NCBI GenBank assembly: GCA_964016885.1
Contig: OZ024742.1
Coordinates: 354,516,001-354,580,000 of the forward strand
Direction: 5' to 3'
Length of the DNA stretch: 64,000 nt
Source of the DNA: Eledone cirrhosa
Taxonomy: Eukaryota
Positions 41,784 through 63,529 of the stretch are shown here, piece by piece. The notes under the pieces were generated by a model. The model ran no database searches and had not been told where the DNA came from. It saw only the letters and a list, made by a program, of their open reading frames with translations. The position numbers and the translations under genes are program-made. Every line of letters starts with the position of its first letter. Within the stretch, counting starts at the first letter, position 1.

Positions 41784-42298
41784 TAATTAAGTCAAATATG
41801 TAAAATTTGGCTTCGTTTATTACCAATTATAGATATAGTGGTATATATATTTCGGTGACAGCCATCATTGTCTGTGGTCTCTTCAGACAGTCATAATTGG
41901 TGTGGAAGGACAGGTCCACATGTTGTTGAAGTGCGTTTTAATCCAGCAATACGTCGATATGTCTAGCTCCTGCTGTTGTTGTTATTTCTCTGAGGAATTG
42001 GAATCATATGAGTTAGAGCAAAGAAGTTTCGGCGTCATAGGACACGTCGTATCCCATTGGTCAGTTGTGAGAACATTCCTCAGTCAAAAGTCTATAGAAA
42101 TCTTTCTGTTGTAGTAGAGTTTGTTTAGGTACAGGTGACCTCCTCCATTGTGTTGGTAGTGGTAGTGGTGTATGGTTGTTTACTGAGACCTCAGTAAGCA
42201 CATTGGAGCACTCGACGAGGTACGCAATTTGGTTGGTTTACTCCGGAATAATGTAAAATATTTAAGTCAAAGATGTAAAATGTGTCTTGTTTTATCAC
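41784..42298 (-). repeat. H3-related hammerhead repeat: one ~475-bp monomer plus terminal redundancy
   Basis: AAGTCAAA(T/G)ATGTAAAAT recurs at a 475-bp spacing (GTCAAA at 41791 and 42266). Hammerhead 41837-41891 (-): CTGAAGA-helix II-GAAA-TATATA-TA, helix I partly decayed. Confidence 0.75.
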
Positions 42299-42496
42299 AA
42301 CATATACTCAAAATGTATATATATATATATATATATATATAAATATACACGGGTGTGTATGATTGCGTATAGAAGATTATATCAATAAAAGCAATTACAA
42401 CTTTGTCTGGTTTATTCGTTATATTTACAATCCTCTTAAATTATAATGATATTATAATGAAATAATATGGTAGAATATTAAATGTTAAGTGTTAAT

Positions 42497-42535
42497 TGAA
42501 CAAGTACTTTCATGCTTTCGCTATCTTCTGGTTCA
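42497..42535 (-). ncRNA. Hammerhead-like motif in the PLE 3' region (pseudo-LTR)
   Basis: TGAAC-CAGAAGA-TAGC(GAAA)GCAT-GAAA-GTAC-TT-GTTCA: helix I, palindromic helix III and CUU site, but U4>A in the core and a weak helix II. Confidence 0.55.
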
Positions 42536-42937
42536 TATTGAGTGGTGACAGTAAAGTTTGCAATTTCCAATTGTAATCAGATGGGTAAATCTTATGCCTT
42601 ATATACAATAAAAGCGGCTACAGAATGCCACGTTTTGCAAACTGTATTTCGACCAATCGGTGTGTAGTTTCACCGGATTACTAAAGCTGATAGGTTTAGG
42701 TGTCACGGTTGATTGAGCATGTCTAACAAATTCTATTTGACCCTATCCAAAGCACCAATTGTTTTGCTATTTTAGAAATGATGAAAATAGCATTTTCTAG
42801 GGTTTTTAACAAAAGTATTTAGTAATCATCACCATCAACATCACTTTTATTATTATTATTGTTGTTGTTGTTGTTAGTGGTGGTAGTCGACAAGGTTGTA
42901 GGCGTAATCATAGTAGGAGTAATAGCCCTTAGCATTA

Positions 42938-43228
42938 TTATTGTTCATTTAGCTTGGGTTCAAATTTATAAATAAAATGATTTTCTTTATTTTTTCTCTT
43001 GACTTCACTTGGGCTGTGTAATTTGTAGAATGGAAATATTATAAATATTCTCTGACCACATGTTGCTAGATGGTTACTCAGGGGTATCTGACGGACATGT
43101 GTGTCTCTGCTTTGCTGTCGGTGCACCCGTGCACGTTGCGATAGTGCATTTCCAGTTTGACCGACATACAGTTCTTCACAATTCGGGCATTTAATGCAGT
43201 AAATTATATTTCTGCTTTTGCAGTTCAT
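42938..43228 (-). pseudogene. GIY-YIG endonuclease domain of the PLE
   Basis: IIYCIKCPNC..LYVGQTG..RARVH..HL..E..FI...PKLN. Confidence 0.9.
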
Positions 43229-43673
43229 ATTTGCATTTGGGAATATTTTTCCAGTGTTTCGTGTTCATATATCGACCAGTGCGTATGGATTGACATGTGA
43301 CACATCGACTATCATTGCATTTAGATACAGCGAATGATTGGTCTTTGTTGTTAAGGTCAAACTTTGCCTTTGTTAGTAATTGCTTCAAAATTGTCGGCTG
43401 TCTTTTACTAAGCATCAAAGCTCGTTCTGTGATTAAACCTTTTAATTCATTACTTTGAGCAATGGTTGGTAGGTTTGCTTTGGCAGTGTTGAAGATATTC
43501 TGGTGACATGGGTTGTGTGTCATTATAAATGGTATGACCACTTCTTGGTTTCTTCTTCCTTGGGTTGTCTTAATTTGTTGTGTAGGTATTTTTATAGCCC
43601 GCTGTATAACATTTTCTATAAGTAGAGATGGATATTTTTGTTTGAGCAAACATTCTCTCAGTTCTGTTAGGCG

Positions 43674-44118
43674 TAAAGGAAAATAATGTTTGTCGATGAA
43701 TGGCCAATACATCGTTTCCCTTTGTAGAAATAAATGACTCCAGAAGGGGGGGGGGTTGAACAGTAAAAAATTAACGATCCTTTATTAAAATGCGACATTT
43801 AATAAATTATGTACAATGTCAATTCAAACATACCTTGTGGGTTAATAGAAGTAGTGTAATTATATTCTCCGGTGCAGAAATAACGAAGGAATAAGCGAAT
43901 GCCTATTAGTCGAGATATCGTGGCGTCCTTGATCCGAAGGAGGGCATTTTCACATAGTCCCTCACGAAGCGAGCATGGTCAATATTTTTTTGAGGAGCGA
44001 ATCCTTTCACGTCTGTTTATGTCCGCGTCTGTGACCGGATGTATCTTGCCTCCGCTCTCTGAAGCGTTGTTATGGGGAGGCAACTGCTAGTTGCTAAGCG
44101 ACCATCTCAGTCAATACA
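43674..44118 (-). repeat. 3' LTR
   Basis: Direct repeat of 48893-49342 with scattered substitutions. Confidence 0.95.
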
Positions 44119-60520: not shown

Positions 60521-60589
60521 AACCAAATAAATATATATATAAAAAAAAAAAGAATCCAGTTGCATTTTCGATTTCATCTTTATTTCTTA

Positions 60590-61661
60590 CTAGCATTAAA
60601 GCCCGGCGTTGCTCGCATCAGTAAGTTAACACATTTAGGTTGCACCACCCATTTTATGGCAGCACTTTTTTGTCTTCCAGGCACTGGGTGAATGGATTGC
60701 AGACCTGTACTGCCGATTCAGGAGCTGCACCAGAAGTGACAGTTGTAGTCTCGCCTATGGATATTATCTCTGTGCAAATAAGTGTTGAAATCTATGGTTT
60801 CACAGTACTTGCGCAACACGCGCGTAGACGATGCCAGCCGAACAACAGAGCTGCGATGGAGTTGTTCTGTATGGTTGTCTAATATGTGTTTTCTAAATTT
60901 AAGACATTAAGGAGGGCTGTGATATGTGGGAGAGTTAGCTGCTGTTTCTAGCATGTTTAGTGACCTCACAGAGGATATATGTTTTCTAAATTTCAGACAG
61001 TAGGGAAGGGTATGATATGGGGGAGATGTATCTGCTGTTTCTAGCAGGTTTAGTGACCTCATAGAGGATATTATTGTGTATAGTAAATAAACTCATACTT
61101 CTTTTTTCCGCGTTCGTTGAGAGATGTTCTTAAAAAGATTTATCGCTATTTTTTTGGTTGTTGAATACATTTTACTGTTGCTTTTGAATATTTGTTGTTT
61201 CCACCCAAAAACAAACGTTCTCTCTCTCACTCACTCTCTTCTCTCTCTTCTTTCTTCGACGTTCCTAAAGGAAGTTTGTAAGTTTAAGCGTATACAAGAG
61301 AAGTTGCAGCATGTACGTGTATGTAGTTTTATCGAATGTTAAGGGAGTAGAAAGAGGTAATCAGATTGTATTAGAGGTGTAAAGCGTCATGTATTTAGTT
61401 TTATAGATTATTTCCGTAATTGCGGGTGACTTTCAAATAAATAAATAGTTATTGACTTAAGCTAACACATTTACAACATTCTTACAGAGGTTGAGTTGAA
61501 TCGGTTTGAAATTCTGCAACTGTATAGACAAGGAACATGCACACACACACACACACACACACCCACACACACACACACACACACACACACACATACACAC
61601 ACACACACACACACACACACACACATACACACACACACAACAACAATCTGCCTTTTATAGA
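60590..61661 (-). mobile_element. Non-autonomous Helitron inserted into an H2 repeat
   Basis: Minus strand begins A|TCTATAAAAGG and ends GCAACGCCGGGC...GCTAG|T with no TSD; the flanks rejoin as the H2 repeat. Internal (GT)n and a ~97-bp tandem duplicate at 60882-61070. Confidence 0.8.
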
Positions 61662-62429
61662 TAATGATACTTTCACTCGTACAGGACACCTCGATTACTT
61701 TTCATTTTGTAAAAAAAACCTCACTTACTAGTATATAATTATATATATATATATATATATATATATACACACATATATATATATATATATATATATATAT
61801 ATATATATATATATATATATATATATATATATATATATATATTTCTATGTATATATATATATATATATATATATATATATATATATATATATATATATGT
61901 ATTTATTTATTTATTAAAACAACAGATTAAAGTTGAATCAACGAATTGCTGTTTTCACTGTTAACGGGCTCTTCTGAAACTAAAAAGATCAATCTGAACC
62001 CAGAAGTAAATATTTCGAAAAACGTTGCAACCGAAGGACAACAAGAATACGATAATTTGGTTTGTGAATACGTTCCTTCTCAATTAACGGAAAAAAAGGG
62101 AAGATAATACGTCATTATATGGAACGCTGATCATTATATGCTTATATATATAAGTGTGTGTGTATGTGTAATATATATATATATATATATATATATATAT
62201 GTAAGTATGCATGTATACGTACATACATATATGTATACAGACGTACAGTAGCATGCACATATATATATATATATACATATATACATACAGGTACACATAC
62301 ATATATGCACGTATCAGTTTAGCGGCGCTAACGTCGCTTTGTTCGTTTGTAAACAAACTGAACAGCCTGAATTTATGCCATACGGTGTTAAGGCAACCAC
62401 GTCACCTTTTTGTTCAACACTGACACAGG

Positions 62430-62474
62430 AACGATGTACTAGTTTCAAGCTTGTTAGCTATCATCAGCATCGTT
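62430..62474 (-). ncRNA. Type I hammerhead ribozyme
   Basis: AACGATG-CTGATGA-TAGCT(AACA)AGCTT-GAAA-CTAG-TA-CATCGTT: GUA site, U.U mismatch at the base of helix II. Confidence 0.88.
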
Positions 62475-62885
62475 TACCCATCTGCCAGATAGTTGAACGT
62501 TCGAAAGTATATACTTTCCTTATGAAAATTAACGGCTGAGCAGCCTAATTTGCATATTGAGTGAGTTAAATCGGTCAGGCATACCGAAAACGATAAATTG
62601 AAACAAAATGAAAACGAAATTTCATTTCTCACTCTTAGTATGGCACTTACTTAAATGTAAGTATGCATGTATACGTACATACATATATGTATACAGACGT
62701 ACAGTAGCATGCACATATATATATATATATACATATATACATACAGGTACACATACATATATGCACGTATCAGTTTAGCGGCGCTAACGTCGCTTTGTTC
62801 GTTTGTAAACAAACTGAACAGCCTGAATTTATGCCATACGGTGTTAAGGCAACCACGTCACCTTTTTGTTCAACACTGACACAGG

Positions 62886-62930
62886 AACGATGTACTAGTT
62901 TCAAGCTTGTTAGCTATCATCAGCATCGTT
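62886..62930 (-). ncRNA. Type I hammerhead ribozyme (second unit)
   Basis: Identical to 62430-62474. Confidence 0.88.
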
Positions 62931-63529
62931 TACCCATCTGCCAGATAGTTGAACGTTCGAAAGTATATACTTTCCTTATGAAAATTAACGGCTGAGCAGC
63001 CTAATTTGCATATTGAGTGAGTTAAATCGGTCAGGCATACCGAAAACGATAAATTGAAACAAAATGAAAACGAAATTTCATTTCTCACTCTTAGTATGGC
63101 ACTTACTTAAATGTAAGTATGCATGTATACGTATATATATATATATATATATATTTGTCCACATGTCAAAAACAACGCATCCTAAGATTTATGGCTTAAC
63201 GAACGCTTCAAACAAGAGTAGCTTTGGAAGACAGGCAGACAGTCGTTCATGCATTCATGCATATATGCACAGGACGATTTCACTGTATGAACGATAAACG
63301 TTGTCTTGTAAATAAATCAATTTTATGATGGATAACGAAACAATGAGCGATGACTACAGAATATCACGTTGAACGAACTTGGCATATATCACAAGGAATT
63401 GGGAGATATTCACACAACATCAGCGACGGGCTTACATATTGAAGCATATCTGAGGATATTTTGATTCCAGAGACAGGTTCGATTAATAATATATATTTCG
63501 TCAAGCTGAATGACAGGGAAACATATGTA

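What the first reader, a model, noticed from the sequence alone, without database searches (positions are those of the whole stretch)
41784..63132. Five distinct hammerhead repeat families converge on a 456-497-bp monomer in (TA)n, next to a Penelope-like element that could mobilise them
Seen: periods of 475 (41784-42298), 466 (53433-54600), ~465-470 (56311-56915), ~497 (59220-59930) and 456 (62201-63132). Each unit has one type I hammerhead, more-than-unit-length redundancy, no ORF and at least one end in (TA)n, and several carry an inverted segment. A Neptune-type PLE (RT+GIY-YIG) at 42330-50020 has a hammerhead-like motif of the same geometry in its 3' region and also ends at (TA)n. Known: tandem-plus-inverted pseudo-LTR structures are the signature of PLE retrotransposition; described animal retrozyme monomers are, from memory, mostly shorter. 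Inference: a radiation of ribozyme-only RNA parasites sharing one helper system, with a size constraint near 470 nt and a TA-microsatellite niche.
Basis: partly seen in the sequence, partly recalled or inferred. Interest (0 to 1): 0.82.

Follow-up and report, generated by a model that had tools for sequence, protein, structure and literature searches.

The report
Octopus-type retrozymes riding Penelope machinery
Short protein-free DNA repeats of about 460-500 bases, each carrying an intact or decayed hammerhead ribozyme motif, sit in TA microsatellites with the end pattern left by Penelope-type jumping genes, so they are likely new cephalopod members of the already described animal 'retrozymes', copied by Penelope enzymes made elsewhere in the genome.

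Summary
The five periods are real (475, 466, 466, 496, 456 bp), ORF-free and end at or near (TA)n. (1) There are three lineages, not five: B~E are 62% identical and C~D probably homologous. (2) Only B and E carry complete hammerheads; those of A, C and D are decayed. (3) The neighbouring Neptune PLE cannot be the helper: it is 5'-truncated, has stops and frameshifts, and 5.7 of its 7.7 kb is a nested Gypsy LTR element. (4) Other hammerhead elements in the window are larger (about 1.6 kb; at least 690 nt), and one family is joined to PLE coding sequence. B/E is a real non-autonomous element: abundant, closed head to tail in sequencing data, with a conserved, covarying RNA fold. Its palindromic-helix-III hammerhead matches those behind Neptune ORFs, and its insertions show inverted arms and two staggered 3' ends, the PLE 'tail' signature. 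This is the known class of non-LTR retrozymes (non-autonomous PLEs; published monomers 51-972 bp), which my searches did not find described for cephalopods. RNA circles and cleavage are untested.

The parts
41776..42309 (-). Family A: 475-bp monomer plus about 56 nt redundancy; hammerhead core at 41886 with stem I broken by a 15-nt insertion; old, decayed copy, both ends at TA
42330..43673 (-). 3' half of a dead Neptune-type PLE: RT thumb/linker with CX4CxxC, GIY-YIG (42941-43264), 3' UTR with minimal hammerhead at 42530 (CAGAAGA core, palindromic 6-nt helix III), 3' end in (TA)n
43674..49342 (-). Nested Gypsy-type LTR retrotransposon (two ~445-bp LTRs differing at 11 of 440 aligned sites, 4-bp target duplication, RT/RNase H remnants with stops) splitting the PLE
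49343..50028 (-). 5' half of the same PLE: RT core, 5'-truncated (matches only residues 254-729 of the 729-aa relative P0005), with in-frame stops and a frameshift
51868..52060 (+). Second, 5'-truncated copy of family B (90% identical), 3' end at TA near B's second end site
52128..52495 (.). Second copy of family A with inverted arms; complete hammerhead at 52229(-); the two 3' ends are offset by about 90 nt; the right arm reads through the monomer junction
53434..54600 (-). Family B: 2.5 head-to-tail 466-bp units; hammerheads at 53762 (complete) and 54228 (helix III palindrome broken); 3' end in (TA)35
54600..54988 (+). Inverted arm of B (389 nt), hammerhead at 54726, 3' end at the second end site, 65 nt from the first, in TA
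56177..56916 (+). Family C: inverted arm 56177-56309 plus 1.3 units of a 466-bp monomer; decayed hammerhead at 56606; 3' ends offset by 88 nt
56982..59083 (.).
59199..59926 (+). Family D: 1.5 units of a 496-bp monomer, probably homologous to C; CAGAAGA-core hammerhead relic at 59609; 3' end in TA
62200..63131 (-). Family E: two identical 456-bp units plus 20 nt, 62% identical to B, complete hammerheads at 62467 and 62923, both ends in TA; 3' end homologous to B's second end site

Best explanation
These are ORF-less hammerhead-bearing repeat units that end in TA microsatellites with inverted arms and staggered 3' ends, and they are likely non-autonomous Neptune-type Penelope elements (non-LTR retrozymes) copied by enzymes of intact elements elsewhere in the genome. 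Model: a tandem copy is transcribed (inferred). The type I hammerhead, whose 6-nt palindromic helix III is predicted to form best between two neighbouring units, cuts out monomers, which may be ligated into circles (inferred from other animals, PMC7229834). A Neptune RT-GIY-YIG protein binds the structured RNA, nicks both strands of a TA tract and starts reverse transcription at two fixed internal sites about 65-120 nt apart (inferred from the genomic ends and from the in vitro PLE work in PMC11167929). Read-through of a multimeric or circular template gives 1.1-2.5 head-to-tail units, and the second priming gives the inverted arm. The copies then decay. B/E is the young lineage; A and C/D are old relics. 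Shown: periods, homologies, fold conservation, end sites, abundance of the closed B monomer, and the death of the adjacent PLE. Inferred: transcription, cleavage, circularity and the identity of the helper.
For: (1) B is an amplified closed monomer: in run X1, 1158 contigs lie on one rotated unit with summed depth in all 30 bins; the head-to-tail junction is crossed by contigs in X1, X11 and X4 and by raw reads in X24; X4 holds a 495-nt contig with a 30-nt terminal overlap, i.e. a cyclic 465-nt unit (tandem DNA gives this too). (2) Recurrent TA-joined ends at the same two sites in other copies: 6 contigs at 53896 and 5 at 53965, matching the window's two B ends 65 nt apart. (3) Staggered 3' ends in all five inverted elements examined: B 65, J 73, C 88, A-copy about 90, F 120 nt, like the PLE tail that equals the distance between two RT start sites (PMC11167929). 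E's 3' end falls at the site homologous to B's second end. (4) Selection on the RNA: circular folds of B and E are far more stable than shuffles (z -10.0 and -8.5, 25 shuffles each), better on the hammerhead strand than the opposite one (-149 vs -126; -144 vs -114); of 51 B pairs with a change in E, 29 still pair (slid controls 13-25 of 58-66), with 13 double changes, 5 of them in hammerhead stems I and II; one further A-U to U-A switch in stem II segregates in the family, with both changes in one X11 contig. (5) Hammerhead type: 7 of 16 close Neptune relatives fetched have a CUGANGA hammerhead 155-445 nt behind the ORF, 6 with a 6-nt palindromic helix III and an 11-14-nt stem II region, as in B/E and the window's PLE. 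(6) No RT or GIY-YIG similarity in any monomer. (7) TA bias and tandem-plus-inverted structure are described PLE traits (PMC8557442).
Against: No autonomous partner was found: none of the monomers resembles the adjacent PLE's 3' UTR (z -0.1 to 2.0). The contigs are short (mostly 40-230 nt) and only the best-supported loose-end rows were shown (95 not shown), so a rare coding parent of B is not excluded; 2 contigs at 53897 run into non-TA sequence. A, C and D fold weakly or not at all above shuffles (z -0.5, -2.7, -1.7) and each rests on one or two loci. TA-rich hairpins inflate folding scores, and only 47 of 132 aligned B pairs recur exactly in E's independent fold. In the PLE studied in vitro, hammerhead cleavage was not needed for insertion (PMC11167929), and 8 of 9 Xenopus retrozymes tested did not cleave (bioRxiv 10.64898/2026.07.22.740005), so the circle step may be dispensable. 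E's 100% duplication could be an assembly artefact. In this window one hammerhead family (I) is joined to PLE coding sequence.
Confidence: 0.72

Rival explanations
1. Ordinary 5'-truncated tails (pseudo-LTRs) of coding Neptune elements that were locally duplicated or rearranged during insertion; no independent non-coding replicon.
For: Family I in this window shows exactly this: a stop-free GIY-YIG fragment at 3-317(-) is joined to an inverted hammerhead segment whose homologues at 39116-39359 and 53123-53352 are bare tails. The G fragments (about 125 nt) look like tails too. A's hammerhead resembles family I's (z 4.0). For A, C and D the redundancy is short and the evidence comes from one or two loci.
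Against: B's closed junction is covered about as deeply as the rest of the unit in X1 and X24; the same closed, colinear monomer is kept between B and E at 62% identity with covariation around much of the circle; A's junction recurs in an independent copy; no coding similarity in any monomer.
Confidence: 0.17
2. One reading: several unrelated ribozyme-only RNAs have converged on about 470 nt because a single PLE helper imposes a size optimum.
For: Three lineages that do not align (A, B/E, C/D) fall in 456-496; chance about 0.016 under a uniform 170-700 prior, 0.0015 if C and D are independent. Published sizes also cluster by taxon (coral and jellyfish 220-245, mussel 350-390; PMC7229834).
Against: B~E and C~D are homologous, and deeper common descent cannot be excluded; F (about 1.6 kb) and J (at least 690 nt) carry hammerheads with the same end signature; periods are only seen when the monomer is shorter than the insertion; several PLE lineages are available as helpers.
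Confidence: 0.08
3. DNA-level satellites or foldback elements that spread by unequal crossover or DNA transposition and merely carry a fossil hammerhead.
For: Hairpin-rich sequence folds as single-stranded DNA too; satellite-like amplification of PLE ends is proposed in bioRxiv 10.64898/2026.07.22.740005.
Against: Dispersed short arrays with fixed 3' ends in TA, variable 5' ends, inverted arms and covarying hammerhead stems; unit differences in B are all private to one unit at the 8 sites covered by four units, as expected for units identical at insertion.
Confidence: 0.03

Closest known systems
Animal non-LTR retrozymes (Cervera & de la Pena 2020, PMC7229834; Li, Clavereau & Pollet 2026, bioRxiv 10.64898/2026.07.22.740005)
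   Same: Tandem ORF-less units with one type I hammerhead each, GC below 45%, highly self-paired monomer, co-occurrence with PLEs, proposed PLE mobilisation.
   Different: Monomer 456-496 bp is just above the 150-450 bp of the 2020 paper but inside the 51-972 bp of the 2026 preprint; host is probably an octopod, a group not mentioned in the main text of either paper; inverted arms, two staggered 3' ends and TA targeting are seen here and were not found in the passages I read; circular RNA and cleavage were shown there and are untested here.
Neptune-clade PLE pseudo-LTRs with minimal hammerheads (PMC4209133; PMC8557442; PMC3846280; mechanism PMC11167929)
   Same: Palindromic short helix III, tandem plus inverted arrangement, tail at one end, microsatellite bias.
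   Different: No ORF between the repeats; tails of 65-120 nt against the 30-40 bp described; CAGAAGA core in the window's PLE, in D and in family G.
Non-autonomous Chlamys elements such as MRC1 (PMC8557442)
   Same: Non-autonomous PLE partners forming pLTRs and multicopy head-to-tail insertions in microsatellites.
   Different: Those are algal, resemble their helper at the 3' end and belong to a clade mostly lacking canonical hammerheads; no helper similarity was found here.
Schistosoma hammerhead W-elements / SMalpha (PMC8490949)
   Same: Several hammerhead-bearing tandem families in one invertebrate genome, one with a 403-bp monomer.
   Different: Long satellite arrays there; short dispersed insertions here.

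Membership tests
Non-LTR retrozyme | Tandem repeat of a few hundred bp without ORF, LTR, PBS or PPT | tested here: met
Non-LTR retrozyme | Complete type I hammerhead in at least two consecutive units (the 'active' criterion of the 2026 preprint) | tested here: met
   E: both units complete; B: cores in both units, one with a helix III mismatch. Not met for A, C, D, which hold one decayed motif each.
Non-LTR retrozyme | Low GC, highly self-paired monomer | tested here: met
   GC 0.31-0.40; B, E circular fold z -10.0, -8.5; A, C, D z -0.5, -2.7, -1.7
Non-LTR retrozyme | Self-cleavage of the transcript | not testable with these tools
   needs in vitro transcription
Non-LTR retrozyme | Accumulation as circular RNA | not testable with these tools
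   needs RNase R northern blots or RT-PCR across the cleavage junction
Non-autonomous PLE insertion | Tandem plus inverted arrangement with a tail at one end | tested here: met
   B, C, A-copy, F, J: offsets 65-120 nt; longer than the 30-40 bp in print
Non-autonomous PLE insertion | Sequence similarity to the pLTR of an autonomous partner | tested here: inconclusive
   none to the adjacent PLE or to the non-coding parts of 87 distant PLE loci (BLAST hits only in the window PLE's coding region); hammerhead geometry matches Neptune relatives; no host genome available
Neptune-clade PLE (42330-50028) | RT followed by C-terminal GIY-YIG with CX2-5CxxC linker and CCHH-type motif | tested here: met
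   clade assigned from these motifs as described in PMC8557442; no tree was built, so Nematis is not formally excluded
Neptune-clade PLE (42330-50028) | Intact ORF able to act as helper | tested here: not met
   5'-truncated, stops, frameshifts, Gypsy insertion

The most novel reading that the evidence does not exclude
Octopods host a radiation of circular hammerhead RNAs that keep a conserved whole-circle fold and fixed Neptune RT start sites, with independent lineages converging on about 470 nt. Their two staggered 3' ends and inverted arms would be direct anatomical proof that animal retrozymes are copied by Penelope machinery, and a CAGAAGA (U4A) hammerhead core would be a working natural variant.
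Probability: 0.15. Interest if true: 0.62.

Novelty: new member of a known kind. Interest (0 to 1): 0.38.

Why it matters
That PLEs mobilise animal retrozymes has rested on co-occurrence (PMC7229834) and on pLTR phylogeny in Xenopus (2026 preprint). Here ORF-less hammerhead multimers carry the insertion signature tied in vitro to PLE reverse transcriptase (two start sites, both strands primed, AT-rich target), and two families at 62% identity share an end site and a fold. B is therefore a ready, high-copy substrate for testing trans-mobilisation and circle formation. It does not establish a new class, a size law or a single helper.

Tried and rejected
No whole genome was held, so the genome-wide period histogram could not be run. 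The RAD-seq loose ends of X24 pile at a few sites and were not interpreted. The 'goes back 466' joint is internal to the monomer because I used a rotated reference; only pieces crossing 53899/53900 count for the head-to-tail junction. A 'rare allele shared by all B units' argument was dropped: the allele at 53801 also stands in X4. An exact B/E hammerhead pattern found nothing in metagenome or viral contigs. No tRNA in the window. The sigma-70 scan is irrelevant for an animal. I first took motifs near 42680 (PLE) and 59545-59600 (D) for the hammerheads; they lack the CUGANGA box, and the better candidates are at 42530 and 59609. Cofolding of hammerhead pairs did not isolate the dimeric helix III and gave no usable test. 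Pfam did not recognise the second GIY-YIG fragment; only a pairwise match supports it. C~D homology scored z 7.8, 3.9 and 0 of 300 shuffles: probable, not certain. Literature searches found no description of cephalopod retrozymes; the supplement of PMC7229834, file 1 of PMC4209133 and the bioRxiv supplements could not be seen and may list some.
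Full report
Setting. The window is repeat-dense animal DNA; the best named hit of its PLE reverse transcriptase is an Octopus sinensis protein at 75% identity, so the host is probably an octopod. No genome was held. I label the five units A (41776-42309), B (53434-54988), C (56177-56916), D (59199-59926) and E (62200-63131).

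Observation. All five periods are real: 475, 466, 466, 496 and 456 bp. Redundancy ranges from 56 nt at 80% (A) to 2.5 near-identical units (B) and two identical units (E). No monomer holds an ATG-ORF above 70 aa or any RT/GIY-YIG similarity. Hammerhead cores are well above chance (18 vs mean 3.97; 14 folded motifs vs 0.3). Complete motifs occur only in B, E and other copies of A; those in A itself, C and D are decayed. Sixteen of 19 listed ends lie within 10 nt of a TA run against 3.4% of background positions, a count biased by my choice of ends; the independent support is.

How many families. B and E align over the whole circle at 62% (score 205 vs shuffle maximum 53); C and D align over 233 columns at 57% (score 62; 0 of 300 shuffles reach it, though a cruder control gave z 3.9); the other eight pairs are at chance level. 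C and D also share the site of their 3' ends and the position of the hammerhead. So there are three lineages, and much of the size agreement is inherited. Three independent lengths within 40 nt would arise with probability about 0.016 under a uniform 170-700 prior, so some clustering remains. But the window also holds F (56982-59083), whose single 40-nt internal repeat implies a monomer of about 1.6 kb, and J (2650-3397), at least 690 nt, both with hammerhead cores and the same end pattern. Periods can only be seen where the monomer is shorter than the insertion.

The neighbouring PLE. It covers residues 254-729 of a 729-aa relative in four pieces with stops and frameshifts, has Pfam GIY-YIG and RT matches and a CX4CxxC linker, which PMC8557442 describes for Neptune and Nematis. 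From 43674 to 49342 it is interrupted by a Gypsy-type LTR element with LTRs differing at 11 of 440 sites and a 4-bp target duplication. It is a dead neighbour that shares the TA niche. A second, unrelated Neptune GIY-YIG fragment at 3-317 is joined to an inverted hammerhead segment whose homologues elsewhere in the window are bare tails: some hammerheads here are ordinary PLE ends.

Evidence that B/E is its own element. Laying four runs on one rotated B unit: X1 gave 1158 contigs with depth in all 30 bins; pieces in X1, X11 and X4 and raw reads in X24 cross the head-to-tail junction; X4 holds a cyclic 495-nt contig (tandem DNA gives that as well as a circle). Loose TA ends recur at 53896 (6 contigs) and 53965 (5 contigs), the two sites at which the window's direct and inverted arms end; 2 contigs at 53897 run into other sequence, and 95 rows were not shown. 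B and E fold as circles at z -10.0 and -8.5, better on the hammerhead strand; 29 of 51 changed pairs still pair (controls 13-25 of 58-66), with 13 double changes, 5 in hammerhead stems, and one more compensatory switch segregates in stem II. Against this, only 47 of 132 aligned pairs recur exactly in the two independent folds, and A, C and D fold weakly. Among 16 close Neptune relatives that reach the C-terminal region (of 87 loci fetched), 7 have a CUGANGA hammerhead behind the ORF and 6 have the same 6-nt palindromic helix III as B/E; over all 87 loci, 29 sense-strand motifs have U at position 4 (19 palindromic) and 2 have A (none palindromic).

Mechanism. All five inverted elements examined have two 3' ends offset by 65-120 nt, and E ends at the site homologous to B's second end. 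In vitro, a PLE protein nicks both strands of AT-rich DNA and starts reverse transcription at two internal RNA sites whose spacing equals the genomic tail (PMC11167929). I infer that a Neptune protein primes at two such sites on a multimeric or circular B/E RNA, giving head-to-tail units on one strand and an inverted arm on the other. B's units differ only by private changes at the 8 sites covered by four units, as expected if they were identical at insertion. Cleavage, circularity and the helper are untested; in the same paper hammerhead cleavage was dispensable for insertion.

What is known. Non-LTR retrozymes (150-450 bp repeats, circular RNAs shown, PLEs proposed as helpers) are in PMC7229834 (passages and section 14 read). 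The preprint 10.64898/2026.07.22.740005 (parts 1-3 of 5 read, main text) reports consensus lengths of 51-972 bp and argues that they are non-autonomous PLE derivatives. TA bias, inverted arms, tails and non-autonomous head-to-tail partners are in PMC8557442 and PMC3846280 (passages); palindromic helix III in PMC4209133 (passages, one supplementary file searched); PMC11167929 (parts 1-2 of 4 read); PMC5680766, PMC8490949 and PMC13282606 (passages; the last lists 31 recently active PLE families in O. vulgaris, and the word ribozyme does not occur in its main text). Searches found no account of cephalopod retrozymes; unseen supplements may hold one.

Verdict. A real finding of a known kind: new, probably octopod, members of the retrozyme / non-autonomous PLE class, with unusually clear insertion anatomy. 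The claims of five convergent families, a 470-nt constraint and the adjacent helper are weakened or refuted. Interest 0.38.

Noticed in passing
window 42530(-), 59609(+), 50189(+), 51666(-), 61976(-), 63990(-): Hammerhead-like motifs with a CAGAAGA core (A at position 4) in the PLE 3' UTR, in D and in all four ~125-nt family G copies; 5 folded hits vs shuffle mean 0.7, a sixth seen. Fixed in G, so perhaps a natural variant; Neptune relatives have U there.
   Followed up: partly
window 3-480: Stop-free fragment of a second Neptune-like GIY-YIG domain (minus strand) joined to an inverted hammerhead segment; tails of the same family at 39116-39359 and 53123-53352.
   Followed up: partly
window 52340-52410: The inverted arm of the second A copy begins within about 4 nt of the predicted hammerhead cleavage site, as if cDNA synthesis ran to the end of a cleaved RNA; one case only.
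   Followed up: partly
window 2267-2618: Two A-related hammerhead tails in inverted orientation with their 3' ends facing a central (TA)18 (92% palindrome).
   Followed up: no
window 1646-1998 and 2650-3397: Family J: non-coding hammerhead-core element with an inverted arm and 3' ends offset by 73 nt.
   Followed up: partly
window 54585-54612: B's inversion junction joins two copies of a short palindromic motif that can form a 7-bp hairpin, a possible template-switch site.
   Followed up: no
window 6890-19900: Nest of non-LTR retrotransposons and their tails in (TTA)n, including a 1016-aa stop-free frame (8197-11247, minus) and a hammerhead-free 493-bp period at 6890-7848.
   Followed up: no
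window 21000-34700: Three related L1/Tx1-like elements (endonuclease plus RT fragments) in tandem, separated by (ATT)n; family name from recall.
   Followed up: no
window 50371-51325 and 55374-55595: Foldback elements (one with an internal 56-bp tandem repeat) inserted at or near TA tracts.
   Followed up: no
L081-L087: Neptune-type PLE contigs stand inside bacterial genome assemblies of the genome collection, most likely animal host DNA.
   Followed up: no
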